NCBI GenBank assembly: GCA_965242595.1
Contig: OZ251464.1
Location: forward strand, 1,278,235-1,342,234
Direction: 5' to 3'
DNA: 64,000 nucleotides
Source of the DNA: Alphaproteobacteria bacterium
GTDB taxonomy: Bacteria; Pseudomonadota; Alphaproteobacteria; SP197
Under the pieces are notes generated by a model, which saw nothing but the letters and a program-made list of their open reading frames with translations, had not been told where the DNA came from and did not search any database. The position numbers and the translations under genes are program-made. Shown piece by piece: positions 5,671-45,885 of this stretch; position 1 is the stretch's first letter; each line of letters starts with the position of its first letter.

Positions 5671-6381
5671 GTGGGGGAGCGTTTCGTCCTTTCGCGCCAG
5701 AGCCTGGCCAGCGGCGCGCTTTCGCCCCATCTGGAGGCGGCCGCGGCGGCCGGCCTGATCGAGTTGCTGCCGGAGGAGGAGCGCGAGGCCAGTCGCCGCC
5801 ACATGCTGGCCGCCCATCCGCCGGGGCGCGACCTTTATGTCTTCGCCTGCGGCTCGCTGATGTGGAATCCCGCCTGCGATGTGGCGGCGGCGCTGCCGGC
5901 CCTGGTTCGAGGCTGGCACCGCCGCTTCAATCTGTGGACCCATCTGGGGCGTGGAACGGCGGCCTTTCCCGGCCTGGCGCTGGGGCTGGAGCCGGGCGGG
6001 GCCTGCCGCGGCCTGGCCCTGCGCATCGCCGCCGCCAGGGTGGAATCGGAAACCCGCCTGATCTGGCGGCGCGAGATGCTGGCCGGCGCCTACCGTCCGG
6101 TATGGCTCCAGGTCCGGCTGGCCACCGGCCCCGCCGCCGCCATCGGCTTTGCCATCGACCGTAGCTATCGTCGCTATGGCCACCGCATCCCCTTCGCCGT
6201 GCAGGCCCGCCATCTCGCCCTGGCCGAAGGGCCGCTGGGGCCGGCCATCGAATATCTGGAAAACACCGTGGCGGCGCTGGACGCCATGGGCCAGAGGCGC
6301 GGGCCGATGCACGATCTGCTGCGCGCGGCCCGCGCCTGGCGCCGCCACCATCGCCATCGCCTCCTGGGCCGGGGCCCGTGA
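5671..6381 (+). CDS. chaC: ChaC-like gamma-glutamylcyclotransferase
   Basis: DLYVFACGSLMWNP...GWHRRFNLWTHLGRGT matches the ChaC core (VWIFGYGSLMWNP). The N-terminal LSRQSLASG resembles E. coli ChaC MITRDFL. GTG start; the stop overlaps the downstream DMT gene start (GTGA). Confidence 0.7.
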   Translation: MGERFVLSRQSLASGALSPHLEAAAAAGLIELLPEEEREASRRHMLAAHPPGRDLYVFACGSLMWNPACDVAAALPALVRGWHRRFNLWTHLGRGTAAFPGLALGLEPGGACRGLALRIAAARVESETRLIWRREMLAGAYRPVWLQVRLATGPAAAIGFAIDRSYRRYGHRIPFAVQARHLALAEGPLGPAIEYLENTVAALDAMGQRRGPMHDLLRAARAWRRHHRHRLLGRGP

Positions 6382-7346
6382 GCGACCCGCCGCAGCGTGG
6401 TGCCGCCCCCGGGACCGAACCCGTGGGCAGGCCCCAGGACAAACCCCTGCAGGGCATCGTTCTGATCGTGGTTGCGGTCGGCATCTGGGCGCTGCACGAC
6501 GCCGCCGCCAAATGGTATGCCGCCTTCTACCCGGTGTTCGTCATCCTGTTCTGGCGCAGCCTGTTCGGCGCCCTGCCGGTGTTCCTGCTGGCCAGCCGCC
6601 AGGGCGGTTTGCAGCGCATGACGGCCCGTCTGCATGTGCTGTGCCTGCTGCGCGGCACCGCCGGCTTCGGCGCCTTCGCCTGCTTCGTCTTCGCCCTGCC
6701 GTTGATGCCGCTGGCCGATGCCTTGGCCGTGGCCATGGCGGCGCCGATCTTCATCACCGCCGCCGCCGCCTTCGTGCTGAAGGAGCCGGTGGGTCCCCAT
6801 CGCTGGGGCGCGGTGCTGGCTGGCTTCGCGGCGGTGCTGTTCATGCTGCGCCCCGGCGGCGACATCCCGCTGGACGGCGCCGCCCTGCTGCTGGCCAGCA
6901 TCCTGTTTTTCACCACCGCCATGATGATGACCCGCCATCTGGGCCGGGTCGTCACCACCGCCTCGCTCACCATCTACACGGCCATCGCCTTTGCCGTGCT
7001 CAGCGCCATCGGCGCCGCCTTTTCCTGGACCTGGCCGCAATGGCAGGACGGCCTGGTGCTGGCGGCGGTGGGGCTGATGGCGGGGCTGGCCCAATACGCC
7101 ATGACGGCCGCCTTCCGCATCGCCCCGCCGGCCGTGCTGGCGCCGTTCGAATATACCGGCCTGGTGTGGGGCATCCTGCTGGGCCTGCTGCTGTGGAACG
7201 AATGGCCCAGCCCCGACATGGCGGTCGGCGCCGGCGTCATCGTCGCCTCGGGCCTCTATATCGTCTATCGCGAGCGCCTGGCCGCCCGACGCCGCCGCGC
7301 CGGAAAGGGGCGTGGCACAGCAGCACGCCCCCGTGCTGCGTCATAA
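6378..7346 (+). CDS. DMT superfamily (EamA-like) transporter, 10 TM
   Basis: Two EamA-like halves with characteristic hydrophobic periodicity. The C-terminal codons and stop codon are supplied by the first copy of the palindromic repeat cluster at 7321. Confidence 0.75.
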   Translation: MSDPPQRGAAPGTEPVGRPQDKPLQGIVLIVVAVGIWALHDAAAKWYAAFYPVFVILFWRSLFGALPVFLLASRQGGLQRMTARLHVLCLLRGTAGFGAFACFVFALPLMPLADALAVAMAAPIFITAAAAFVLKEPVGPHRWGAVLAGFAAVLFMLRPGGDIPLDGAALLLASILFFTTAMMMTRHLGRVVTTASLTIYTAIAFAVLSAIGAAFSWTWPQWQDGLVLAAVGLMAGLAQYAMTAAFRIAPPAVLAPFEYTGLVWGILLGLLLWNEWPSPDMAVGAGVIVASGLYIVYRERLAARRRRAGKGRGTAARPRAAS

Positions 7347-7437
7347 AGCAGAGTCCGGCACGCCCTCGTGCTGCGTCATAAAACAGAGTCCAGCACGCCC
7401 TCGTGCTGCGCCGCGCCCGGCACCGTGCTATGCTGCG
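7321..7437. repeat. Tandem array (3 copies plus a degenerate 4th) of a 35-bp unit containing a palindrome: CAGCACGCCC(C/T)CGTGCTGCGTCATAAA(A/G)CAGAGTCC
   Basis: Seen directly. 7-bp stem CAGCACG/CGTGCTG with a 4-nt loop. The same core, inverted, recurs at 8904-9000. Confidence 0.7.
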
Positions 7438-8338: not shown

Positions 8339-10144
8339 GTGGCCGCGTTCCTTGCCCCATCCGTGTTCGATGGCGCCGCGCCCATGGCGGCGCCGGTGGG
8401 CAATGCCGCCTTCGCGCCGTCGCCCCGGGCCGGCCCCGCCCATGGCAGCTTCGAGGGCCGGCTGGAGATCGCCGGCGGGCGCCTCGCCAGCGCCTGCGCC
8501 GCCCTCGATCAGGAATTCGCGCTGGGTGGCGCGCCGCGCCGTTTTCCCTCGCTCGCCCTCGCCTTCACCAGCCATCGGGGCGAGCTGCTGCCGCTGTGGC
8601 GCGGCCTTCACCGCCGCCCCGACCGGGCGAGCTATTGGGATGTCATGGTCGGACCCGGGCGCATCTGGTCCGAACCCGGCGACGGCGCCCGGAGCCGCGC
8701 CGCCTTTCCCTTCCAGCTCTCCAACCAGGGCGAGAACGACAGCCACCACGGCGTCGCCTGCCTGCTGTTCGACGGCGAAGGTGTCAGCGGCCTGGTGCTG
8801 CAGGTGACGGTGGAAACCCGGCCCTATGACCTCCCCGCCGGCTTCGACCTCTGGGGCCGCCTCGCCGTCTCCTTCACCCCCGGCCCGGGCCCGGGCGCTT
8901 CCCATGACGCAGCACGGGGGCGTGCTGTCGCTTTCCATGGTGCAGCACGGGGGCGTGCTGTCGCTTTCTATGATGCAGCACGGGGGCGTGCTGCCGAGCG
9001 CCGCGGCGCCCCCCCCATTCGCCCGCTTGACGAGCTGCGCCCTGCCGTTGGCGACCGGCTGCTGGATGCCCTCGCCACGGGCACCGGCAGCGACAGCGAG
9101 ATCGTCGCCGGGCTGGCCTGCGACGGTGCCATCTATGCCAGCGCCGTCGCCACCCGGCACGGCCCCTTTCCCTATCCCCGGGCCATGCGCTTCGGCCTGT
9201 GGTCGGCCACCAAGGCGGCCTTCGCCACCACCGCCCTGCTGCGCCTCGCCCATCGTCTGGGGCCGGAGGTGGCCACCACCCGCATCGCCGATGTCATCCC
9301 CGCAGCCGCCGCGCATCCCCACTGGCAGCGGGTGACGATCCGCCACTGCCTCGACATGGCCTCGGGCATCGGCACCGCTGCGGGCCGCGCCGGGGCGCCC
9401 GACATCCATGCCGACAACCTGACCACACCCGAAGACGCTGCCGCCTCGCCGGAGGCGGCGCGCAGCTACCGCGCCTATCGCGACTGGTTCCAGGCGCCCT
9501 CTCTGGCCGGCAAGCTGGCGGCGGCCTTCGCCTGCCCTTCCTATCCCTGGGGGGCGGGCGAGGTGGCGCGCTATCGCGATCAGGATCTGTTCATGGCCGG
9601 CATCGCCATGGACGCCCTCTGGAAGCGTCGGCAGGGGCCGGATGCGGACCTTTTCGCCATGGTTGCCGAGGAGGTCTTCGCCCCCATCGGCATCGTCGGC
9701 GCCGATATCGGCCGCACCGTCGAAGCGGATGGGCGCCAGGGCGCGCCGCTGGGCGCCTTCGGCCTCTATCTGGGCATCGACGATGTGGCCAGGCTCGGCC
9801 GTCTGCTGGCCGGCGGCGGCGTGCATCGCGGGCAGCGTCTGCTGGAGCCGACGCTGCTCGCTGCCTGCTTCGACGGCCGCTTCGACAAGGGGCGCGCCAC
9901 CGGCACCTTCACGGCCGAAGGCCGCGAGATCGCCTACAGCCTCGCCTGTTGGCAGCTGCCCATGACCACCCGCGCCGGACGGCAGGTGCGCATCGCCACC
10001 ATGCGGGGCTATGGCGGCCAGATCGTGCAGCCGCTGTGGAACGGCATCGTCTGCTTCCGCTTTGCCTGCGATCCGCCCCATCCCGACCGGAGCTACGACG
10101 CCCTGAAGCTGCCCCGCATCGCCGACGCCCTGAAGCCGCTCTAG
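8339..10144 (+). CDS. Serine hydrolase (beta-lactamase/transpeptidase-like fold) with an N-terminal domain of unknown function and an in-frame 99-bp repeat insertion
   Basis: S-x-x-K motif in [18 protein letters not shown]-terminal ...MRGYGGQIV resembles the KTG/GxG region of class C-like serine hydrolases. 601-aa ORF with GTG start. Codons 190-222 ([11 protein letters not shown] x3) are encoded by the palindromic repeat cluster. It could alternatively be a disrupted gene. Confidence 0.5.
8904..9000. repeat. Tandem array (3 copies) of a 33-bp palindrome-containing unit ATG(A/G)(C/T)GCAGCACGGGGGCGTGCTGTCGCTTTCC. It is the reverse complement of the 7321 cluster core.
   Basis: Seen directly. 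The shared 24-bp core is CAGCACGCCCCCGTGCTGCGTCAT. It lies inside the CDS 8339-10144 in frame (11 codons per unit). Confidence 0.7.
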
Positions 10145-13489: not shown

Positions 13490-13506
13490 AGCGGATGGGG
13501 GGCAAG

Positions 13507-14181
13507 ATGATCGTTGTCATTCAATGTGCTAAAAGCAAAAGGGATCATGCTGGCCATCTCGTGAATAACGCCGGCCGAAAAGTGTTGTTTGTCGCTCGTC
13601 CCGAAGAAGCCTCCGCTTGTGAAGGTTACATCTTTGCACGACCGGACGACGACGATGGCACGGGTGTCTCATGGCGGAACCAACTGTTGGAGTACAATAA
13701 AAATTCCAATAGCAATCCGCTAGGTTTGTTGCCGGCGGTGGAACTCTACAAACATCCGATCTACGAACACCTGGCGCGACATTATGGACGCGAGAATCTC
13801 TACATACTTTCGGCAGGTTGGGGTCTGATTGCAGCAGATTTTCTGACACCAGCCTACGACATCACATTCAGCAGTGACGCTGAGTCCTGTCATCGACGGC
13901 GTCAAAGCGATATTTATTGCGACTTCCACATGCTGCCGGACGATACGACAGAGCCTGTCATATTCCTCGGTGGCAAGAGTTACGTTAAACTTTTTTGCTC
14001 ATTAACCAGGAACGTGAAAGGTAAGCGATATGTTTTTCATAAAGGCAAGCAATATGTTTTTCATGTATCCCGGGGTGAACCCCATGCTCCGAAGTGTTTT
14101 TTCAAGAGATTCGAGACAACAGCCCGAAGTTGGCACTATGAATGCGCTCACGCCCTTATCGAAGGCAGGATCGGTATCTGA
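13507..14181 (+). CDS. Hypothetical protein (224 aa) in a low-GC islet. No family recognised; Cys/His-rich C-terminus.
   Basis: GC content drops sharply over 13495-14200 (AT-rich codons, e.g. aaaagcaaaagggatcatgct). G-rich SD before ATG 13507. Protein MIVVIQCAKSKRDHAGHLVNNAGRKVLFVARPEE...YILSAGWGLIAADFLTPAYDITFSSDAESCHRRRQSDIYCDFHMLPDD.... Confidence 0.55.
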   Translation: MIVVIQCAKSKRDHAGHLVNNAGRKVLFVARPEEASACEGYIFARPDDDDGTGVSWRNQLLEYNKNSNSNPLGLLPAVELYKHPIYEHLARHYGRENLYILSAGWGLIAADFLTPAYDITFSSDAESCHRRRQSDIYCDFHMLPDDTTEPVIFLGGKSYVKLFCSLTRNVKGKRYVFHKGKQYVFHVSRGEPHAPKCFFKRFETTARSWHYECAHALIEGRIGI

Positions 14182-20689: not shown

Positions 20690-21682
20690 ATGGCGCGCGC
20701 CCTGATCGCCGACCTCTCCGGCCCTCGCCTGACGGAGGCCGAGCGGCGCTTCCTGGGCGAATGTCAGCCGCTGGGCATCGTCCTGTTCGCGCGCAATGCC
20801 GAAAGCCCCGGCCAGTTGGCCGACCTGGTCGGCGACATTCGCGCCGCCCTGGGCCGGGCCGACGCGCCGGTCACGATCGACCAGGAGGGTGGGCGCGTGG
20901 CCCGGCTGCGGGAGCCGCACTGGTGGTCCGGGGTGGCGGCGGCCCGGCTGGGGCAGGCCGGGGCGGAGGCATGCCGTCTGGCGGCCAGGCTGATGGCCTG
21001 CGATCTGGCGGCGGCCGCCATCGATGTGGTCTGCGCACCGTGCCTCGATCTGCGTCTGGCGGGCGGGCACCGGGTGATCGGCGATCGCGCCTTTTCCGAC
21101 TGTCCCGCCACGGTCGCCGCCTGCGGCAGGGCCTTCTGCCAGGGCCTGATCGAAGGCGGCGTGCAGCCGATGGTGAAGCATCTGCCCGGCCATGGGCGGG
21201 CGGGCGCGGATCCCCACCACGCCCTGCCGGTGGTCGATGCCGATCTGGCGACGCTGCGCGGGCAGGATTTCGCGCCCTTCCGGGCGCTGGCCGACATGGC
21301 ATGGGGCATGACCGCCCATGTGGTCTTCATGGCCGTGGATGCGGAACGCCCGGCCACCTGGTCGCCGGCGGTCATCGGCGACGCGATCCGGGGCCAGATC
21401 GGTTTCGACGGCGTGCTGGTCAGCGACGCCATCGACATGGCCGCCCTTTCCGGCAGCCACGAGCGGCGGGCGCGGCTGGCCCTGGCGGCGGGCTGCGATG
21501 TCGTCATGCACTGCAACCAGCCGCTGGAACAACGCCTTGCCGTCGCCCGCGCCGTGCCCGAACTGGCGGGCGAATCGCTGTGCCGGGTGAAGGCGGCCGC
21601 GGCGGCCAGGCGCCCGCCCGCGCCCGGCTTCGACCCGGCGGGCGCCCATGCCAGGCTGGACGAGCTGCTGGCCCGGCGATGA
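20690..21682 (+). CDS. nagZ: Beta-N-acetylhexosaminidase NagZ (GH3)
   Basis: GIVLFARN...TIDQEGGRVARL...KHLPGHGRAGADPH are GH3 NagZ motifs. Confidence 0.85.
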   Translation: MARALIADLSGPRLTEAERRFLGECQPLGIVLFARNAESPGQLADLVGDIRAALGRADAPVTIDQEGGRVARLREPHWWSGVAAARLGQAGAEACRLAARLMACDLAAAAIDVVCAPCLDLRLAGGHRVIGDRAFSDCPATVAACGRAFCQGLIEGGVQPMVKHLPGHGRAGADPHHALPVVDADLATLRGQDFAPFRALADMAWGMTAHVVFMAVDAERPATWSPAVIGDAIRGQIGFDGVLVSDAIDMAALSGSHERRARLALAAGCDVVMHCNQPLEQRLAVARAVPELAGESLCRVKAAAAARRPPAPGFDPAGAHARLDELLARR

Positions 21683-22374
21683 CGGCGGCCATGTCCGACA
21701 TCCTCTACCAGGTTTCGGTCTGGCTGCTGCCGGCGCTGACCGCGATCACCCTGCACGAAGCGGCCCACGGCTTCGTGGCCTGGAAGCTGGGCGACGACAC
21801 GGCCCGGCGGCAGGGCCGCGTCACCTTCAACCCGCTGCGCCATATCGACCTGTTCGGCACCGTCATCCTGCCGGGCCTGCTGTTGCTGGCGCGTGCGCCC
21901 TTCCTGTTCGGCTATGCCCGTCCGGTGCCGGTGGATCCCAGCCGCCTGCGCCATCCCCGGCGCGACATGGTGTGGGTGGCGGCGGCGGGGCCGGGCGCCA
22001 ATCTGATCATGGCCTTCGTGGCGGCGCTGGCGATGCATGCCCTCGACCTGCTGCCCGAGGCCGCTCGCATGTGGACCCTGGAAAATCTGCGCAACGCCCT
22101 GGTGCTGAACGCCGTGCTGGCGGTTTTCAACATGCTGCCGCTGCCGCCGCTGGATGGCGGACGGGTGGTGACCGGCCTGCTGCCGCCCGCCCTGGCCCGC
22201 CCCTTCGCCCGCCTGGAACGCTTCGGCCTGGCCATCGTCGTGGCGCTGGTGGTGCTGCCGCCGCTGGTGGGCCAGCAGCTGGGCGTGGATGTGGGCATCA
22301 TGCGCTGGCTGCTGCTGCCGCCGGTGGAATACACCATCGGCGCCGTTCTGGTGCTGGCGGGGCAGGGGGGCTGA
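21679..22374 (+). CDS. Site-2 protease family (M50) zinc metalloprotease, membrane
   Basis: HEAAHG zinc motif (HExxH) in the first TM, with a downstream LDGG region. ATGA overlap with the nagZ stop. Confidence 0.7.
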   Translation: MTAAMSDILYQVSVWLLPALTAITLHEAAHGFVAWKLGDDTARRQGRVTFNPLRHIDLFGTVILPGLLLLARAPFLFGYARPVPVDPSRLRHPRRDMVWVAAAGPGANLIMAFVAALAMHALDLLPEAARMWTLENLRNALVLNAVLAVFNMLPLPPLDGGRVVTGLLPPALARPFARLERFGLAIVVALVVLPPLVGQQLGVDVGIMRWLLLPPVEYTIGAVLVLAGQGG

Positions 22375-23780: not shown

Positions 23781-23801
23781 CCGGCGCCGCGCTGGGGAGG
23801 G

Positions 23802-24113
23802 TCAGCCGTTCGGGCGCGCCCAGCCGTAATAGGTGCTGTGGTCTTGCCAGTTGTAGGGATCGGCCCCCAGGCTGCCGGCGCCGCCGGCGATCCCGTCCAG
23901 ATCGCTGTCGGAAAGGGCGCCGTCCGGGTCGGGTGGAAACACCAGGTGGACCGTTTCGGCTGTGTCCTCGACCACGCGCACCTCGTCGATGGCGGCGGGG
24001 ATGGGCAGGCCCCATGCGTCCAGGGCCGCCTGCGGGTTCGCCTGGATGCGGGCGCGAAAGCCGGCATCCTCGCGCCAGGCCCGCGCGAAATCTTCAACCG
24101 GTGGTGCCTTCAT
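23802..24113 (-). CDS. NHLP (nitrile hydratase leader peptide) family RiPP precursor peptide; predicted core AGSLGADPYNWQDHSTYYGWARPNG after the ...LSDSDLDGIAGG double-Gly site
   Basis: The leader ANPQAALDAWGLPIPAAIDEVRVVEDTAETVHLVFPPDPDGALSDSDLDGIAGG matches the NHLP consensus (...DPKAVLAEAGIELPEGVEIRVVENTDKVFYLVLP...LSDEELEAVAGG). Strong SD GGAGGAAA. Confidence 0.7.
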   Translation of the reverse strand: MKAPPVEDFARAWREDAGFRARIQANPQAALDAWGLPIPAAIDEVRVVEDTAETVHLVFPPDPDGALSDSDLDGIAGGAGSLGADPYNWQDHSTYYGWARPNG

Positions 24114-24435
24114 CTCTGCTTTCCTCCGGGGTTATGCCAGCGCCTGCGCCGTGACATCGTTCGGGGCCGTCCAGGCACCGGCCATCGTTTCTTCGTGTGT
24201 CTGACATCTATCTGGCACGGCGACGGCAAGCTGTCAAGCACCGCTCGTGCATTTTTCGCAGGGCATGAAGAATATATTGCACCTGCCGCGCCACGGGCAG
24301 GGCAGCGCCTGCCGCGACATCGGCGGCGGTCGCGAGCACGGCGCGGGGCTGGCATGGCCCCGGGCACCGGCGTTCCGCCGGCATCGGGCCGGAGCTCCCG
24401 AACCCTTCGCCTCCTGTGCCCCGAGGCGGGGCAGG

Positions 24436-24510
24436 CCCCGTCATTGCGCCCCCTGTCATTGCGCTCTTGTCGTTGCGCCCCCCTGTCATTGTGCCCCTTG
24501 TCATTGCGAA
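24436..24510. repeat. Five perfect-period direct repeats of a 15-bp unit CC(C/T)TGTCATTGCGC(C) in the intergenic region
   Basis: Seen directly: ccccgtcattgcgcc / ccctgtcattgcgct / cttgtcgttgcgccc / ccctgtcattgtgcc / ccttgtcattgcgaa. The array ends 43 bp upstream of the ABC ATPase gene, and is also upstream of the divergent NHLP precursor gene. Confidence 0.6.
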
Positions 24511-24552
24511 TGAGTTGCAGTTAGTCTTCCCGCCTCCATCGGGCCGGGACGG

Positions 24553-25623
24553 ATGACGGCACTTTCCTTTCACGGCGTCGGCCATGCCTATGACGGGCGC
24601 CCGGCGCTCCAGGCGATCGATCTGGAGCTGGCCGGCGGCGAGATCCAGTGCCTGGTCGGCCCGTCGGGCTGTGGCAAGACCACGGCCCTTCGCCTCGCCG
24701 CCGGCCTGGAGGTGCTGGCCGAGGGCGCCATTCGCATCGGCGGGCGCCTGGTTGCCGGCCGCGGCGTCCATCTTCCGCCCGAGGCGCGCGGCGTCGGCAT
24801 GATGTTCCAGGACTTCGCGCTCTTTCCCCATATGACGGCCGCCGCCAATGTCGGCTTCGGCCTGCGGCGGCTGGATCGGCGCGCGCGGCGACGGCGGGCG
24901 GAGGAGCTGCTGGAGCGGGTGGGGCTGGCCGGCTGTGGCGACCGCTATCCCCACGGGCTTTCGGGCGGCGAGCGGCAGCGGGTGGCCCTGGCCCGCGCCC
25001 TGGCGCCGGAACCCCGCGTGATGTTGCTGGACGAACCCTTTTCCGGCCTGGATGTCCGTCTGCGCGAAGAGGTGCGCGAGCGGACGCTGGCCGTGCTGCG
25101 CGAGGCCGCCATCGCCGCCCTGGTGGTCACCCACGATGCCGAAGAGGCGATGTATATGGGCTGCCGCATCGCGGTGCTGCAAGGCGGGCGCCTGGTGCAG
25201 AGCGGGCGCCCGGCGGAGGTCTATCGCCGCCCCGCCTCGGCCTTCGTCGCCCGCTTTCTGGGCGAGACCAACCGGCTGGAGGGGGTGGTGCGCCAGGGGC
25301 TGGCGCGCTCGCCTCTGGGCTGTGCCGCGGCCGACGGACTGGGCGAGGGCGAGGCGGTGGACCTGCTGATCCGCCCGGAGGGCCTGCGCCTTATCGCCAG
25401 CTGCGGCGGCTGTGCCAGCGGCGAGGGGCACTGGGCCCGGGTTCTGGCCTGCCATCCCCTGGGCCACAGCCATCTGGTGACGCTGGGCCTGGACGATGGC
25501 CAGCGGCTGCGGGCGCGCATCTCCGGGCAGGAGCCGCCGCCGCCCGGCGCCGAAGTGGCGGTGACCATCGCCGAGGGCGCCGCGCTGGTGTTCCCCCGCC
25601 AGGGCCGCCCGCCGCCAGCCTGA
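24553..25623 (+). CDS. ABC transporter ATP-binding protein with C-terminal TOBE-like domain (PotA/FbpC/CysA type)
   Basis: Walker [10 protein letters not shown], signature [15 protein letters not shown], Walker B MLLDEP. No permease or SBP gene adjacent. Confidence 0.8.
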
Positions 25624-31245: not shown

Positions 31246-32055
31246 TCATACCTCCACACACTCAAAGCGCAGTTGATTTTCCGTGACCTGCTTGTCATGG
31301 GGCACCGTGCATACCCGTAGGCAAGGAACGAAAGCCTGCCCGCAAACAGCCCATTTCTTATTCCAAACACCGTCTGGGAACAGACGTCGGCTATGACTCG
31401 TTACATGCCTTCCCCAACACGTGCTATCGGTGAACGGTCTCCCGAGATCCTCTACGTCTGTTGCTTTGAGAAATCCCAAATAAACAAGAACCACTGGATA
31501 ACCCAGTTCGGTGAGTTTCCAGGACCAGGAGAAACGGTTGGATATCTGATAGCAGAGGTCGCGCGATAGTGACCAATCATGTCCTGTCGCTTTCGTTAAG
31601 GCCATACTGGCCTCACAAATACATTTTTCAATTCGTTTGTGATTGCGTCGGGAGTCTTCACTCGCATCAGATTTTAATGGTTTACCATTGAGACTCAATT
31701 CTTTTGTGTGAGCTTTTGCTTCGACGAGAAGTAATCCCCTTGCGCCATCAATTTTGCAAGTACTGGCGATATCGAAGTTCGGAGTATTAGGGTTATTAGA
31801 ACTCACTGCAATCCACCAATGGCATAAAGTATCTTGATCCTTCTCCGGCAACAGGGGTGATCGATCCAAACGTGCTTCCTCGGTCCGACAAAATCCTTGT
31901 GGTAGCCAGCTGTCATTCGCCGACACTTCGATCCATGGTGCAGCCAGCTTCGTCAAGCGCGCGGCGACTTCCTCAGGCTTCCCATGAGTAAGCCAGTGGC
32001 AACGTGGCTTACTTCCTCTACGCCCTTTCGCGGGCAGCTTATTGAGCAGGCTCAT
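31246..32055 (-). CDS. PD-(D/E)xK nuclease-like protein (candidate restriction/defence endonuclease) in a low-GC islet
   Basis: About 48-50% GC versus about 70% in the flanks. Motif ...NTPNFDIASTCKIDGARGLLLVEAKAH... fits D-x(n)-E-x-K of the restriction endonuclease-like fold. The 270-aa ORF starts MSLLNKLPAKGRR. An alternative start lies 19 codons upstream. A 13-codon upstream mini-ORF with a good SD overlaps the start. Confidence 0.6.
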   Translation of the reverse strand: MSLLNKLPAKGRRGSKPRCHWLTHGKPEEVAARLTKLAAPWIEVSANDSWLPQGFCRTEEARLDRSPLLPEKDQDTLCHWWIAVSSNNPNTPNFDIASTCKIDGARGLLLVEAKAHTKELSLNGKPLKSDASEDSRRNHKRIEKCICEASMALTKATGHDWSLSRDLCYQISNRFSWSWKLTELGYPVVLVYLGFLKATDVEDLGRPFTDSTCWGRHVTSHSRRLFPDGVWNKKWAVCGQAFVPCLRVCTVPHDKQVTENQLRFECVEV

Positions 32056-32150
32056 GGTATGTCCATTTGGTCGCGCGCATGGTTGCCTCTCTACCTGTAT
32101 GTCGCTTGACATGCAAGCTGAACTGGCTTCCTCGTTCCAGGCCGCCCCGT

Positions 32151-37254: not shown

Positions 37255-38661
37255 TTAGGCCTGGGTTCCGGTTCCCTTGGTCGAGTTGCAGGCCTGGCAG
37301 AGCAGTTGCAGATTGTCGCTGTGGTCGCTGCCGCCCTTGATCTTCGGCGTGATGTGATCGACGGTCAGGTTGCGGAAGGGAAAATGGGTCATGCAGCCGT
37401 TGCAGCGGCCTTCCTGCTGGCCATAAAGGGTGTGCTTGTGGGTGCGATAATCCGGCAGCTTGCCCAGATCGGTGCGCGCCGGAATATCGCTTCTGTGATC
37501 GACGTCATAGAAGATGCCCATCTCCTGCTGCAGGCGGGAGACCACCAGCTTCGCGGCCAGGGGCGAGAGGTCGATCCCTATCCAGTGGCGCTGCAACTGT
37601 TCGGCGGCGACGAGAGCCGTCGCGCAGCCGCAGAAGGGGTCGAGCACGATGTCGCCCGGCCTGGACGACGCGCGGATCACACGTTCGAGCAAGGCGAGCG
37701 GCTTCTGTGTGGGATAGCCTGTGCGTTCCTTGCTGTGCGCGGAAACAGGGTTGATATCCAGCCATATTGCGGTCGGAATCTGGCTCTTCTCCCGATTTAA
37801 ATAACGCTTCAATGCGGGAGTTTTCCCTTGCAGCGGCCATGCAATGAGCCCGGTTTTGTCCAGCATGTCGAGGCGCGCATGAATGCCCTTTATCGAACGA
37901 TAACCGGGGATAAAATTATCTTCCACCCATCTGGCATATTCGCCGGTCAGCGGCACCGCCCAGTGTCTGCCGACCTTTCCTGGGTCGATGCCGCGCCAGG
38001 GCTGGCCGCTTTCGCCCGTTCTCACCTCGGAGGCGGTCAGATCGCCCAGTCTGTAGATGCCATGCTTGTCCTCGTGGCGATAGAATTTGCGCACGTAATC
38101 TGGATCCAAAGGCACCCGCACCGCATCTTTGTCGATAGGCGCGCCATAGAAAAGAAGATTGTCCACCACCTTGCCAAAGCCCTTGCTGTCGCTATGCGCC
38201 GATTGCCGCTTCCAGACGATCTCGTTGCGAAACATGGAGGCACCGAACAAGCCGTCCATAAGCGCCTTGAGATAATGGCCCGCCGTCGGATCGCAATGCA
38301 GATAGATCGAACCCGTCGGCTTCAACACGCGGCGCAACTCCAGCAGCCTGACCGCCATCATGCACAGATAGGCCTTCATGCCCCTGGAGTGGGTCAGGGC
38401 CGCCGCCTCGATGGCGGCATATACGGCGGGTTCCCGGTCGGCGATCTCGCCATGCCAGGCCAGATCCACGTCGTCGAGGGTCCAGGCGTCCTTGAAGGCG
38501 GCCCCGGCGGCCTCGCTCCCTATCGGCGCCGAATAGGTCTTGTTGCTGTTGAAGGGCGGATCCAGATAGATCAGATCCACGCTTTCGCTGTTCAGGCCGC
38601 GCAGGATGTCGAGATTGTCGCCGGTCCACAGGGTGCGGTTGTTCCAGTTGGGCGCTGCCAT
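37255..38661 (-). CDS. DNA methyltransferase (N6-adenine/N4-cytosine, Pfam N6_N4_Mtase, beta class) fused to a C-terminal HNH endonuclease domain
   Basis: DPPF catalytic motif (IYLDPPFNS) near the N-terminus and the SAM motif LDPFCGCATALVAAEQL later give beta-class order. C-terminal CNGCMTHFPFRNLTVDHITPKIKGGSDHSDNLQLLCQACNSTK is a canonical HNH. Confidence 0.75.
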   Translation of the reverse strand: MAAPNWNNRTLWTGDNLDILRGLNSESVDLIYLDPPFNSNKTYSAPIGSEAAGAAFKDAWTLDDVDLAWHGEIADREPAVYAAIEAAALTHSRGMKAYLCMMAVRLLELRRVLKPTGSIYLHCDPTAGHYLKALMDGLFGASMFRNEIVWKRQSAHSDSKGFGKVVDNLLFYGAPIDKDAVRVPLDPDYVRKFYRHEDKHGIYRLGDLTASEVRTGESGQPWRGIDPGKVGRHWAVPLTGEYARWVEDNFIPGYRSIKGIHARLDMLDKTGLIAWPLQGKTPALKRYLNREKSQIPTAIWLDINPVSAHSKERTGYPTQKPLALLERVIRASSRPGDIVLDPFCGCATALVAAEQLQRHWIGIDLSPLAAKLVVSRLQQEMGIFYDVDHRSDIPARTDLGKLPDYRTHKHTLYGQQEGRCNGCMTHFPFRNLTVDHITPKIKGGSDHSDNLQLLCQACNSTKGTGTQA

Positions 38662-43748: not shown

Positions 43749-44855
43749 ATGAAGATCGTCAGGCTGGAGACGTTCGCCGATCCCTGGCTGTGTTTCGTGC
43801 GCGTCACCGGCGACAGCGGCGCCCAGGGCTGGGGCCAGACCGCGCCCTATCATGCCGACATCGCGGCCGAGATCCTGCATCGCCAGGTCGCCCCCCATGC
43901 CCTGGGCGGCGATGCGCTGGAGTTCGCCGGTCTGACGGATCTGATCGGCGAGCGCGAGCACAAATTTCCGGGCTCCTATCTCTGCCGCGCTCTGGCCGGC
44001 CTCGATACCGCCCTGTGGGATCTGCGCGGCAAGCTGGAAGACAAGCCGGTGGCGCGGCTGCTGGGCAGCGAGGGCGGGACGCTGCGGGCCTATGCCAGCT
44101 CCATGAAGCGCGACATCGCGCCCGCCGACGAGGCCCGGCGGCTGGCGCGGCTGGGCGACGAACAGGGCTTCGATGCCTTCAAGTTCCGCATCGGCGCCGA
44201 ATGCGGGCGCGACCGGGACCACTGGCCGGGGCGCACCGAGGAGATCGTGCCTGCCGTCTGCCGGGCGCTGGACAGCGGGGCCGCCCGGCTGGTGGACGCC
44301 AATTCCGGCTTTTCCCCGGGGCGGGCCATCGAGGTGGGGCGCATGCTGGAAGACGAGGGCGTGAGCCATTTCGAGGAACCCTGCCCCTATTGGGAGCTGG
44401 AACAGACCAGGGAGGTGACCGAGGCGCTCGCCATCGACGTCACCGGCGGCGAGCAGGACTGTTCGCTTGCCACCTGGCGGCGCATGCTCGCCATGGGCGC
44501 GGTGAACATCGTCCAGCCCGACATCATGTATGTGGGCGGGCTGACCCGCGCCTTGCGGGTGGCGGAGATGGCGGCGGCGGCCGGGCTGCCCGTCACCCCC
44601 CATTGCGCCAATCTGTCGCTGGTGACGGTCTGCACCATGCATCTGCTGGCGGCGCTGCCCAATGCCGGCAAATATCTGGAGCTCTCCATCGAGGGCGGCG
44701 ATTACTACCCCTGGCAGCAGGGCCTGTTCCTGGGCGATCCGTTCGCCGTGGAGGCGGGGCGGGTGCGGGTGCCGGACGGCCCCGGCTGGGGGGTGGAGAT
44801 CGCGCCCGCCTGGCTGGAACGGGCGCGCTATCGGGTCAGCGCCCTGGAGCCGTGA
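43749..44855 (+). CDS. Mandelate racemase/muconate lactonizing enzyme family (enolase superfamily) protein
   Basis: 368 aa. KxK catalytic pair region (FKFRIG), metal ligands (D...E...D: LVDANSGF...FEEP...QPDIMY). SD GGAGGGAGG. Confidence 0.75.
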   Translation: MKIVRLETFADPWLCFVRVTGDSGAQGWGQTAPYHADIAAEILHRQVAPHALGGDALEFAGLTDLIGEREHKFPGSYLCRALAGLDTALWDLRGKLEDKPVARLLGSEGGTLRAYASSMKRDIAPADEARRLARLGDEQGFDAFKFRIGAECGRDRDHWPGRTEEIVPAVCRALDSGAARLVDANSGFSPGRAIEVGRMLEDEGVSHFEEPCPYWELEQTREVTEALAIDVTGGEQDCSLATWRRMLAMGAVNIVQPDIMYVGGLTRALRVAEMAAAAGLPVTPHCANLSLVTVCTMHLLAALPNAGKYLELSIEGGDYYPWQQGLFLGDPFAVEAGRVRVPDGPGWGVEIAPAWLERARYRVSALEP

Positions 44856-45885
44856 CTGCGGCCTGCCCCTGCTCCGGCATGTCCGGCGGGGCGCGGGGCC
44901 GAGTGGGAACCTGGGCGTCGAAATTGGCCACGAAGGCGGCCAGATCGCGCCCGGCATGGCGCGGGGCCATGTCGTCCGGCGCGCCGGTGACCGGCAGGCC
45001 GGGCAGGGGGGCGACCACGGTGGCGTAAGACGGCACGGCGAAGAAGGCGATGGAGAAGCGTTCCCGCCGCCGGGGCGGGTGGACCCGGTGCATGGTGGAG
45101 CGGAAGCGCCCGCCCGACCAGGATTCCATCATGTTGCCGATATTGACGATCAGCGTGCCCGGGCGGTGGTCCACCTCGCTCCAGCCGCCCTGCGGGTTCT
45201 GGACCTGAAGGCCGCCGACCTCGCCCGGCAGCAGCACGGTGACGGCGTTGGTGTCGCGATGGGGAAAGACGTCGTCGCCGGGCGCGCCTTCCGCCTGCGG
45301 GCGGGCGGGGTAGTGGAGCAGGGAAAGATTGCTGAGCGGGCGGACGAACAGCCGGGTGAGCGCATCCTCCTCCCGTTCCATGGCGAGGGCGAAGGCCCGC
45401 AGCAGGGCCGTCGCCAGCGTCGAGAAGGCGCCATAGCAGGCGCCGATGGCGGCGCGGAAGCCCGGCGGCGCCGGCGGCCAGCGATTGGGCGCCGCCAGCC
45501 CCCGGTCGGCCTGGGGGATGGCCCGGGAAATGGCGGGTTCCGTCATGTCGGCCTCTTCGCCCACCAGGAAGGCTTCGTAGATCGTGCGCGGCGCGCCCCG
45601 ATGGCGCTGACGGGCGAAGGGCATGATGGGCACATAGCCGCGCAGGGTGCCGGGCGGGCGTGTCAGGCGGCGCTTGGCGGCCTCGTCCTGGGCGAAGAAG
45701 GCCCGCGCCTGTGCCAGTGCGTCCTGCGGCACGGCGGGCGGGACGCCGTGGCCGGTGACGCGGACGAAGCCGGAGCGCTCGCAAGCGGCGGCGATGCGCC
45801 GGGCGCAGGCCAGCCGACGGTCGCGGTCGGCGGCGAACAGCGGCGCGATGTCGATATCGGCGATCGTGGCAGTCGTGACGATCAT
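44836..45885 (-). CDS. 2OG-Fe(II) oxygenase (isopenicillin N synthase-like family)
   Basis: HRDTNAVTVLL (HxD) ... MHRVHPP (distal His), N-terminal DIDIAPLF...VRVTGHGV. Confidence 0.7.
   Translation of the reverse strand: MIVTTATIADIDIAPLFAADRDRRLACARRIAAACERSGFVRVTGHGVPPAVPQDALAQARAFFAQDEAAKRRLTRPPGTLRGYVPIMPFARQRHRGAPRTIYEAFLVGEEADMTEPAISRAIPQADRGLAAPNRWPPAPPGFRAAIGACYGAFSTLATALLRAFALAMEREEDALTRLFVRPLSNLSLLHYPARPQAEGAPGDDVFPHRDTNAVTVLLPGEVGGLQVQNPQGGWSEVDHRPGTLIVNIGNMMESWSGGRFRSTMHRVHPPRRRERFSIAFFAVPSYATVVAPLPGLPVTGAPDDMAPRHAGRDLAAFVANFDAQVPTRPRAPPDMPEQGQAAVTAPGR

What the first reader, a model, noticed from the sequence alone, without database searches (positions are those of the whole stretch)
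23802..24113. Orphan NHLP-family RiPP precursor with a Cys-free, Trp/Tyr-rich core and no local maturation genes
The 103-aa ORF has a textbook nitrile-hydratase-leader-peptide domain (...PQAALDAWGLPIPAAIDEVRVVEDTAETVHLVFPPDP...) ending in the double-glycine processing motif LSDSDLDGIAGG. The following 25-aa core is AGSLGADPYNWQDHSTYYGWARPNG. It contains no Cys, so it is not a classic lanthipeptide or thiazole/oxazole substrate. It is instead rich in Trp, Tyr, Asn and His, the residue classes targeted by radical-SAM cyclophane, crosslink or hydroxylation chemistry. The gene has a strong RBS and sits alone between scpB and an ABC ATPase. There is no LanM, cyclodehydratase, rSAM or C39-peptidase transporter within the window, so the modifying enzymes must act in trans or be novel. 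A 5x15-bp direct-repeat array lies in its upstream intergenic region.
Basis: partly seen in the sequence, partly recalled or inferred. Interest (0 to 1): 0.8.

Follow-up and report, generated by a model that had tools for sequence, protein, structure and literature searches.

The report
Solo NHLP RiPP precursor gene
This is a real, conserved gene for a peptide-natural-product precursor (NHLP family) that was inserted alone into a housekeeping gene row; its nearest relatives sit next to a known ring-forming (YcaO) enzyme, so it is an ordinary family member in an unusual place.

Summary
Window 23802-24113 (-) encodes a 103-aa, Cys-free protein that passes NCBIfam's NHLP leader model (TIGR03793, 56 bits against a cut-off of 50.9). 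It has an L(X)4L...GG leader end, a 25-aa core and a GGAGGA ribosome-binding site. I annotated all 64 kb and found no YcaO, LanM, radical-SAM, P450 or C39-ABC gene.

The gene belongs to a narrow subfamily, a single 50%-identity cluster among 1.84 billion representatives. Its core scaffold G-x-D-P...W...(S/T)-Y-(Y/H)-G-W-x-x-P-N-G is invariant. The non-syntenic members (61% identity) lie directly downstream of a full-length LynD/TruD-type fused E1-like/YcaO cyclodehydratase, in clusters carrying several nearly Cys-free NHLP precursors. The partner chemistry is therefore most likely YcaO Ser/Thr cyclodehydration, not radical-SAM cross-linking.

In the window's clade the gene is a ~0.7-kb insertion between scpB and an ABC-ATPase promoter. 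It is absent from the nearest outgroups and is kept under purifying selection (dN/dS about 0.3).

The 15-bp repeat array is a strain-specific amplification of the ABC-ATPase promoter's -35 region. It is not an NHLP element.

I could not test whether this genome encodes a YcaO elsewhere. This is a new member of a known kind, of modest interest.

The parts
23802..24113 (-). NHLP-family RiPP precursor gene, 103 aa plus stop (stop codon at 23802-23804)
   Evidence: ORF list. TIGR03793 56 bits against a 50.9 cut-off. Pfam NHase_alpha. The best PDB sequence match is the MprE7 NHLP leader, 8tb1, E 1.3e-14. Orthologues at 70-87% identity sit at the same locus. dN/dS is about 0.3.
23880..24113 (-). Leader region, residues 1-78: helix alpha-1 (FA..WRED), then L67-(X)4-L72 and G77-G78
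   Evidence: F9, A10, W13, R14, L67, L72 and G78 are invariant in 31 distinct family sequences. G77 is invariant in the 6-sequence alignment and is Ala in only 1 of the 31. A10 and W13 align to MprE7 Ala14 and Trp17, and the L(X)4L aligns to MprE7 Leu70/Leu75, the residues shown to bind the YcaO RRE (PMC12455567). The AF2 model gives three helices, a beta-hairpin and a short helix at 69-73.
23805..23879 (-). Core region, residues 79-103: AGSLGADPYNWQDHSTYYGWARPNG
   Evidence: Family-invariant scaffold G83, D85, P86, W89, Y95, G97, W98, P101, N102, G103. Position 94 is always Thr or Ser and is the only universally conserved heterocyclisable residue. pLDDT is low (34-55) in the AF2 model.
24122..24127 (-). 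Ribosome-binding site GGAGGA, 8 nt upstream of the ATG
   Evidence: Sequence. GAGGA is invariant in five orthologous intergenic regions.
24232..24280 (-). Conserved AT-rich promoter-like block (GCAATATATT ... GAAAAATGCA ... CTTGACA). TTGACA lies at 24232-24237, about 120 nt upstream of the ATG.
   Evidence: This is the only strongly conserved block in the NHLP-proximal half of the intergenic alignment of five lineages. No clear -10 hexamer was found, and the consensus scan reported no sigma-70 site, so calling it a promoter is an inference.
23781..24496 (.). Clade-specific insertion carrying the NHLP gene and its upstream region, between the scpB stop and the ancestral ABC-ATPase promoter
   Evidence: In outgroups L016 (GCA_014323865.1) and L018, scpB is followed after 63-90 bp by the ABC ATPase with no gene between. 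The promoter block is shared with the outgroups.
24436..24508 (.). 15-bp x 4.9 tandem repeat (CCCTGTCATTGCGCC). It belongs to the ABC-ATPase promoter, not to the NHLP gene.
   Evidence: TRF. The unit matches the -35 part of the conserved ABC promoter. Copy number varies: 5 in the window, about 2-3 in L001, 1 in L007, L009, L011, L016 and L018.
24497..24527 (+). Conserved promoter-like block of the divergent ABC-ATPase gene: CTTGTCATTGCGAATGAGTTGCAGTTAGTCT (TTGTCA, 17-18 nt spacer, TAGTCT)
   Evidence: Invariant in the five ingroup lineages and recognisable in both outgroups. Promoter function is inferred.

Best explanation
The ORF is a functional, stand-alone copy of an NHLP-family RiPP precursor. 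It belongs to a narrow subfamily with a conserved Cys-free core ending (S/T)-Y-(Y/H)-G-W-x-x-P-N-G. The subfamily's partner enzyme, where one is seen, is a LynD/TruD-type fused E1-like/YcaO cyclodehydratase.

Shown: family membership; the gene is conserved and under purifying selection; it was inserted between scpB and the ABC-ATPase promoter in one narrow Rhodospirillales-like clade; no maturase lies within 64 kb; non-syntenic subfamily members are YcaO-adjacent.

Inferred mechanism:
- The folded NHLP leader docks on the RRE domain of a YcaO encoded elsewhere in the genome, through the helix alpha-1 Ala10/Trp13 face and the L67(X)4L72 strand.
- The enzyme phosphorylates a backbone amide using ATP and cyclodehydrates the one family-conserved hydroxyl residue, Thr94, and possibly Ser93 or Ser81. 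This gives a (methyl)oxazoline and a mass shift of -18 Da per ring.
- The leader is then removed after Gly77-Gly78 by an unidentified protease or exporter.

Whether this particular genome still encodes such a YcaO was not testable here.
For: 1. TIGR03793 scores above its curated cut-off, and the protein matches the NHase-alpha fold. The best PDB match is MprE7, a proven YcaO substrate leader.
2. Only one 50%-identity cluster in 1.84 billion representatives matches full length. The other 3,477 hits match the leader only.
3. P0005 and P0340 (61% identity, same core motif) lie 95 bp downstream of a 753-aa YcaO, seen at L010 and L014. The same YcaO-precursor pairing recurs on contigs of 17,037, 22,636, 4,240 and 71,420 bp.
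4. That YcaO aligns end to end with LynD (E 1.3e-154) and TruD, and passes TIGR03604 and TIGR03882.
5. The seven co-clustered precursors are also NHLP-like and nearly Cys-free, so this enzyme lineage evidently handles Ser/Thr-only cores.
6. The leader residues that bind the YcaO RRE in MprE7/MprC are invariant or nearly so in 31 family sequences. Leader dN/dS in the scpB-linked clade (about 0.25) is no higher than in the YcaO-linked clade (0.33).
7. The RBS and an upstream block are conserved.
8. Distant placement of NHLP substrates relative to the fused cyclodehydratase is documented (PMC2887384).
Against: No YcaO was found in the window or on any scpB-linked contig (L001, L007, L009, L011).

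The window protein is identical to P0325, recorded on a 2,821,534-bp contig, and the L011 orthologue sits on a 2,763,832-bp chromosome. None of the six 90%-identity YcaO clusters closest to the precursor-linked enzyme has a member on a contig of either length. None of the 120 best YcaO representatives does either.

Conversely, genomes carrying those YcaOs show no scpB-type precursor.

The YcaO-adjacent clusters at L014 and L015 lack a dehydrogenase, a protease and an exporter within 10 kb, so even the reference pathway is incomplete.

LynD, TruD and MprC prefer Cys (PMC12455567). No modification has been observed for any member of this subfamily.
Confidence: 0.5

Rival explanations
1. It is a domesticated or true orphan. 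The clade acquired only the precursor gene and has no cognate maturase. The 103-aa product, a folded NHase-like domain with a conserved aromatic tail, acts unmodified as a small protein or peptide, or is processed only by general proteases.
For: The insertion brought one gene only. No close YcaO orthologue is traceable to the two complete chromosomes that carry the gene. The core is conserved rather than hypervariable, unlike typical NHLP libraries. The gene has been kept at one housekeeping locus across lineages whose ABC ATPases are 85-94% identical to the window's. [quoted passage not shown]
Against: The leader features needed only for enzyme docking and cleavage (L(X)4L, Gly-Gly, the Ala/Trp face of alpha-1) are invariant or nearly so, with no sign of relaxed constraint. 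The core motif is identical to that of the YcaO-linked copies. The absence of a YcaO from the genome was not actually tested, because cluster-member listings cover only a few of more than 4,000 YcaO homologues.
Confidence: 0.3
2. The Trp/Tyr/His/Asn-rich core is the substrate of a different, distant or novel enzyme class, such as radical-SAM cyclophane or cross-link formation, a P450, or a hydroxylase acting in trans.
For: The core is aromatic-rich and Cys-free. NHLP leaders are known to serve several enzyme classes (PMC12455567; PMC12537861 abstract). A 2OG-Fe(II) oxygenase lies 20 kb away at 44836-45885.
Against: No radical-SAM, P450 or similar gene lies next to any member of the subfamily at the loci examined. 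The only enzyme repeatedly adjacent is the YcaO. The 2OG oxygenase is outside the stretch of synteny examined at the related loci, and nothing else links it to the gene.
Confidence: 0.12
3. It is a non-functional remnant or a chance ORF in a high-GC genome.
For: High-GC genomes produce many long spurious ORFs. Core dN/dS estimates are noisy and reach or exceed 1 in some pairs.
Against: The HMM hit is above its curated cut-off. Codon-position GC matches real genes. The RBS is conserved. The reading frame is intact in 31 distinct sequences from many contigs. Whole-gene dN/dS is 0.3-0.4.
Confidence: 0.03

Closest known systems
NHLP precursors of TOMM/azoline pathways with a fused cyclodehydratase-docking (E1-like/YcaO) enzyme: TIGR03793 with TIGR03882/TIGR03604 (Haft et al. 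2010, PMC2887384); MprE1-10/MprC (PMC12455567)
   Same: The leader has the NHase-alpha-like fold, L(X)4L and a Gly-Gly junction, and the precursor is about 100 aa. Subfamily relatives lie next to a fused YcaO in multi-precursor clusters. Precursors placed away from the enzyme are already documented.
   Different: The core has no Cys and only three Ser/Thr, and it is conserved rather than hypervariable. The reference clusters at L014 and L015 show no dehydrogenase, C39 exporter or protease within 10 kb. The window copy sits alone in a housekeeping array.
Cyanobactin heterocyclases LynD, TruD and PatD with PatE-type precursors
   Same: The YcaO adjacent to the subfamily's relatives aligns over its full length with LynD (4v1t, E 1.3e-154) and TruD (4bs9). 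The L(X)4L leader motif is shared.
   Different: The precursors are NHLP-type rather than PatE-type. There are no PatA/PatG proteases and no macrocyclisation signals. LynD and TruD act on Cys.
Prochlorosin system (ProcA precursors scattered around the genome, one ProcM acting in trans)
   Same: NHLP/Nif11-type long leaders with a Gly-Gly site. Precursor genes are unlinked to the enzyme.
   Different: Prochlorosins are class II lanthipeptides that need Cys. They come in many hypervariable copies per genome. Here there is one conserved copy, no Cys, and no LanM at any related locus.
Proteusins (polytheonamide, landornamide, aeronamide)
   Same: NHLP-type leader.
   Different: These pathways are defined by radical-SAM epimerases and further tailoring enzymes next to the precursor. 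None was found here or at related loci.

Membership tests
NHLP leader peptide family (TIGR03793) | Scores above the curated cut-off of the family HMM | tested here: met
   56.0 bits against 50.9, E 2.6e-15, model positions 12-77 of 77.
NHLP leader peptide family (TIGR03793) | Homology to nitrile hydratase alpha but lacking the CxxCSC metal site | tested here: met
   Pfam NHase_alpha matches profile positions 109-163 only. PDB NHase alpha chains match at E 1e-12. The protein contains no Cys at all (sequence).
NHLP leader peptide family (TIGR03793) | Gly-Gly cleavage motif at the end of the homology region, followed by a core | tested here: met
   ...L67SDSDL72DGIAG77G78 is followed by 25 residues. 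G78 is invariant in 31 sequences and G77 in 30 of them; the length varies right after GG.
NHLP leader peptide family (TIGR03793) | Hypervariable core rich in Cys/Ser/Thr | tested here: not met
   The core has 0 Cys, 2 Ser and 1 Thr, and 10 of its positions are invariant across the subfamily. This is a typical attribute rather than a strict criterion of the HMM family.
NHLP leader peptide family (TIGR03793) | Co-occurrence with a maturase (fused YcaO or LanM) and a C39-peptidase ABC exporter | tested here: not met
   Neither is present within the 64-kb window. Genome-wide presence could not be tested with these tools.
TOMM / linear azol(in)e peptide substrate | Precursor adjacent to, or in the same genome as, a YcaO cyclodehydratase | tested here: inconclusive
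   Not met for the window. Met for subfamily members P0005 and P0340 at L010 and L014. No member of the closest YcaO clusters sits on the 2,821,534-bp or 2,763,832-bp contigs, but the coverage of that test is partial.
TOMM / linear azol(in)e peptide substrate | Heterocyclisable Cys/Ser/Thr in the core | tested here: met
   Ser81, Ser93 and Thr94 are present. Position 94 is Thr or Ser in all 31 sequences.
TOMM / linear azol(in)e peptide substrate | Observed -18 or -20 Da azol(in)e modifications | not testable with these tools
   This needs mass spectrometry.
Radical-SAM-modified RiPPs (cyclophane/triceptide, darobactin-like, proteusin epimerisation) | Radical-SAM (often SPASM) enzyme next to the precursor | tested here: not met
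   No radical-SAM family appears among the Pfam hits of the window genes, nor in the precomputed Pfam lists of L001, L007, L009, L014 and L015.
Class II lanthipeptide (ProcA/LanM type) | Cys plus Ser/Thr in the core, and a LanM enzyme | tested here: not met
   The core has no Cys. No LanM domain was found in the window or at the subfamily loci (same calls as above).

The most novel reading that the evidence does not exclude
The clade captured only the precursor gene and has no cognate maturase. The folded NHLP domain with its invariant ...(S/T)Y(Y/H)GWxxPNG tail would then have been exapted as a maturase-independent small protein or peptide, kept next to chromosome-segregation and Tat genes. 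A weaker form of this reading is that it is matured by an enzyme type not yet linked to NHLPs. Separately, the LynD-like YcaO clusters with eight almost Cys-free, W/Y/G/R-rich NHLP cores and no dehydrogenase, protease or exporter may make a still undescribed Ser/Thr-only or non-azoline YcaO product class.
Probability: 0.3. Interest if true: 0.55.

Novelty: new member of a known kind. Interest (0 to 1): 0.3.

Why it matters
The finding gives a clean, datable example of a RiPP precursor gene moving on its own. A ~0.7-kb insertion placed it in one of the most conserved housekeeping arrays of Alphaproteobacteria, and it then survived under purifying selection.

If a YcaO acts on it in trans, it is a convenient single-site Ser/Thr substrate for studying NHLP recognition by LynD-type enzymes.

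If no maturase exists in the genome, it would be a case of a RiPP leader domain being exapted.

Either way it is not evidence for new chemistry. Automated annotation would already name it an NHLP-family RiPP precursor.

Tried and rejected
- Exact-sequence look-ups of the window's NHLP and ABC-ATPase proteins found no gene on record. The source record could therefore not be opened. The identity of the window protein to P0325, on a 2,821,534-bp NCBI/ENA contig, came from cluster listings instead.
- I tried to place a YcaO on the window's chromosome or on OZ241369.1 by matching contig lengths of YcaO cluster members. No match was found among six clusters and 120 representatives. This is suggestive only, because the fused-YcaO family has more than 4,000 members.
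- An Rfam scan of the whole window gave 0 hits and a tRNA scan gave 0. The sigma-70 promoter and terminator scan around the gene gave 0 sites.
- The AF2 model of the precursor had a mean pLDDT of 64.6. A Foldseek search of it against the PDB gave no match with E <= 0.001. The sequence-profile search was informative instead.
- tblastn for YcaO remnants in the NHLP upstream region found nothing, so the insertion carries no trace of the enzyme gene.
- L012 and L013 from the genome scan turned out not to be informative. L012 is a different 89-aa NHLP-like orphan with no nearby biosynthetic cluster, and L013 is a weak hit in a 41% GC genome.
- I considered the M50 peptidase (21679-22374) as a leader protease and rejected it. 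It is part of the ancestral argS-SPOR-nagZ-M50-scpAB array, which is present in outgroups that lack the NHLP gene.
- I considered the ABC ATPase as an exporter and rejected it. It is an importer-type ATPase with a TOBE_2 domain and no C39 or membrane domain, and it is also ancestral.

Full report
**Observation**

- Its codon-position GC is 0.74/0.53/0.83, matching the real genes of this 70% GC window.
- A GGAGGA ribosome-binding site lies 8 nt upstream of the ATG.
- NCBIfam's NHLP leader model TIGR03793 matches at E 2.6e-15 with 56 bits, above the curated cut-off of 50.9, over model positions 12-77 of 77. Pfam NHase_alpha is also above threshold.
- The protein contains no Cys.
- The leader ends ...L67-S-D-S-D-L72-D-G-I-A-G77-G78, and 25 residues follow.
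- The 15-bp x 4.9 tandem repeat is real and lies at 24436-24508.

**Window content**

I called genes by codon-position GC. I then assigned them to Pfam families directly or through synteny with loci that carry precomputed Pfam hits.

The region from about 14 to 36 kb is a housekeeping array. In order it holds GFA, Amdase, exonuclease III, Fe-S biosynthesis, HD dGTPase, argS, SPOR, nagZ, M50 peptidase, scpA, scpB, then the NHLP gene, then the ABC ATPase (TOBE_2), tatABC, serS, surE, pcm, LysM/M23, DUF815, yajC and secDF.

The rest of the window is metabolic and transport genes: topA, RNase R, a Dpp-type ABC importer, Dps, CO-dehydrogenase subunits, XdhC and others.

tblastn with a YcaO and an HMM search with the family profile found no YcaO and no second NHLP in the window. 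No radical-SAM, LanM, P450 or C39-ABC family appears. So "no local maturase" is confirmed for 64 kb. The only loosely relevant genes are a 2OG-Fe(II) oxygenase 20 kb away and the M50 peptidase. The M50 peptidase belongs to the ancestral array (see "The gene is an insertion" below).

**The family is narrow and the gene is real**

A word-indexed search found five 90%-identity clusters at 61-87% identity. An exhaustive HMM search of 1.84 billion representatives found only one 50%-identity cluster matching full length at E < 1e-30. The other 3,477 hits with E <= 0.001 match the leader only.

Thirty-one distinct sequences keep the frame. Invariant in all 31 are F9, A10, W13, R14, L67, L72 and G78 in the leader. 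In the core the invariant positions are G83, D85, P86, W89, Y95, G97, W98, P101, N102 and G103. G77 is invariant in the 6-sequence alignment and is Ala in one of the 31. Position 94 is always Thr or Ser. In the YcaO-linked variant P0340 it is the only Ser or Thr in the whole core.

Nei-Gojobori dN/dS is 0.3-0.4 for the deeper pairs. The leader alone gives about 0.25-0.35. Values for the 25-codon core are noisy.

The window protein is identical to P0325, recorded from NCBI and ENA on a 2,821,534-bp contig.

**The gene is an insertion**

Orthologues at 70-87% identity always lie between scpB and the ABC ATPase. This holds for L001, L002, L007, L009 and L011; L011 is the complete MAG chromosome OZ241369.1.

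The ABC ATPase has only two close clusters, at 94% and 85% identity, and then drops to 67%. In those next relatives, L016 (GCA_014323865.1, a Rhodospirillales MAG) and L018 (a 3.75-Mb contig), the same array is present. There scpB is followed after 63-90 bp by the ABC ATPase.

The block CTTGTCATTGCGAATGAGTTGCAGTTAGTCT just upstream of the ABC gene is shared with the outgroups. So about 0.7 kb, roughly 23781-24496, was inserted between the scpB stop and the ancestral ABC promoter.

Within the inserted part, an AT-rich block ending in TTGACA (24232-24280) and the RBS are conserved in all five ingroup lineages. I read these as the gene's own expression signals. This is an inference, because the consensus scan found no canonical promoter.

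**The repeat array**

The 15-bp unit CCCTGTCATTGCGCC matches the -35 part of the ABC promoter block (CCCTTGTCATTGCG). There are five copies in the window, about two or three in L001, and one in L007, L009, L011 and the outgroups. It is a strain-level tandem amplification of the neighbour's promoter. It lies 45-117 nt from the ABC start, and it is not a conserved element of the NHLP gene.

**What the relatives say about chemistry**

The one branch of the subfamily that is not at the scpB locus comprises P0005 and P0340, at 61% identity, with cores ...DPQPN..(P/R)WNTYYGWARPNG. It lies 95 bp downstream of a 753-aa protein (L010, L014).
- That protein passes TIGR03604 (243.8 bits against 219.25) and TIGR03882 (131 bits against 36.9).
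- It aligns end to end with the cyanobactin heterocyclases LynD (4v1t, E 1.3e-154) and TruD.
- In L014 seven more roughly 100-aa ORFs precede the enzyme. All match TIGR03793 over its full length at E 1e-5 to 1e-8, below the cut-off. All end their leaders in LDGVAGG. Their cores are rich in W, Y, G and R, with one Cys among seven cores.
- L015 and L020, with YcaOs 66-68% identical, have similar type-A precursors but no ...GWARPNG copy.
- A more distant family member, L019, sits in a full cluster with a C39-ABC exporter, a ThcOx-type dehydrogenase and a DUF4135 protein.

The only enzyme repeatedly associated with this subfamily is therefore an azoline-forming-type YcaO, and that lineage evidently works on Cys-poor cores. 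This is the classical NHLP-fused cyclodehydratase association defined by Haft et al. (PMC2887384) and treated by Cox et al. (PMC4603692).

Wakeel et al. showed that an NHLP binds the YcaO RRE through two elements: the L(X)4L strand and the alpha-1 helix face, including Ala14 and Trp17 of MprE7 (PMC12455567). In the profile alignment these correspond to L67/L72 and A10/W13 of the window protein, all of which are invariant.

**Mechanism proposed (inferred)**

The leader docks on a YcaO encoded elsewhere. ATP-dependent cyclodehydration occurs at Thr94, and possibly also Ser93 or Ser81, giving a (methyl)oxazoline. Cleavage then follows after Gly-Gly. No dehydrogenase is seen beside the closest enzymes, so unoxidised azolines are the expected product.

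**What remains open**

I could not scan the source genome.
- None of the six YcaO 90%-identity clusters nearest to the precursor-linked enzyme has a member on a 2,821,534-bp or 2,763,832-bp contig. None of the 120 best representatives does either.
- The genomes that do carry those YcaOs (3,371,863; 3,392,457; 3,274,215; 2,827,353 bp) show no scpB-type precursor.
- This pattern fits loss or absence of the enzyme in the window's clade. It covers only a small part of a YcaO family with more than 4,000 members, so it is not decisive.
- Haft et al. already noted both situations: substrates far from the fused cyclodehydratase, and NHLPs in species with no identified maturase.

**Verdict**

The gene is a new member of a known kind. 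It is notable for its solitary, syntenically fixed position and its conserved Cys-free core, but it is not evidence for new chemistry.

My probabilities are:
- about 0.5 that it is a trans substrate of a LynD-type YcaO;
- about 0.3 that it is a maturase-independent or exapted orphan;
- about 0.12 that another enzyme class acts on it;
- about 0.03 that it is non-functional.

Interest is 0.3.

Noticed in passing
window 13495-14181 (+); about 31246-32110 (-); 56301-57092 (+): Three ORF-sized islets of about 50-52% GC sit in a 70% GC window, and each holds one foreign-looking gene. They are a DUF6884 protein, a 288-aa protein with no Pfam hit, and an ankyrin-repeat protein whose N-terminus looks like a signal peptide (by eye, not tested). 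The ankyrin gene carries a 102-bp x 2.5 tandem repeat at 56671-56920.
   Followed up: partly
window 37255-38661 (-): An N6/N4 DNA methylase fused to an HNH nuclease, with GC3 of 0.78 against about 0.88 for its neighbours. It is probably horizontally acquired.
   Followed up: no
L014 7116-12669 (ENA ERZ26050368 contig_1, 3.37 Mb): A minimal cluster: seven NHLP-like precursors, a LynD-like YcaO, then one more precursor. The cores are almost Cys-free and rich in W, Y, G and R. No dehydrogenase, protease or exporter lies within 10 kb. The cluster abuts phage tail and terminase genes. It may represent an uncharacterised product class.
   Followed up: partly
L014 8235-8558; L015 9513-9836; L020 705-1028: One type-A core, WGGYPNG.T.N...Y(S/T)..QLSAGG.YDS.R, is conserved next to YcaOs of three lineages whose enzymes are only 66-68% identical. 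This suggests a second conserved, non-hypervariable product.
   Followed up: no
L012 9983-10252 (OZ251461.1); also P0329 on the 3,371,863-bp genome: An 89-aa NHLP-like orphan with a short Pro/Gly-rich tail (GGLAGVPPGPGRRP). It overlaps the next gene by 4 bp and occurs in genomes that also carry the YcaO cluster elsewhere.
   Followed up: partly
window 24553-25623 (+): An importer-type ABC ATPase (ABC_tran plus TOBE_2) with no permease or binding-protein gene nearby. It is conserved between scpB and tatA in the ingroup and in both outgroups. It has a highly conserved, roughly 55-bp upstream block.
   Followed up: partly
L019 1-22352 (ENA ERZ25070786, 4.14 Mb): A large RiPP cluster with two fused YcaOs, a C39-peptidase ABC exporter, a second ABC protein, an APH-like kinase, a ThcOx/nitroreductase, a DUF4135 protein and about ten precursor-sized ORFs of roughly 130 aa.
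   Followed up: no
window 8896-8993 and 7321-7410: An in-frame 33-bp x 3 repeat lies inside the beta-lactamase-like gene (repeated AARGRAVAF...). A 35-bp x 2.6 repeat spans the end of the EamA transporter gene (6378-7346) and the spacer before the next gene (7458).
   Followed up: no
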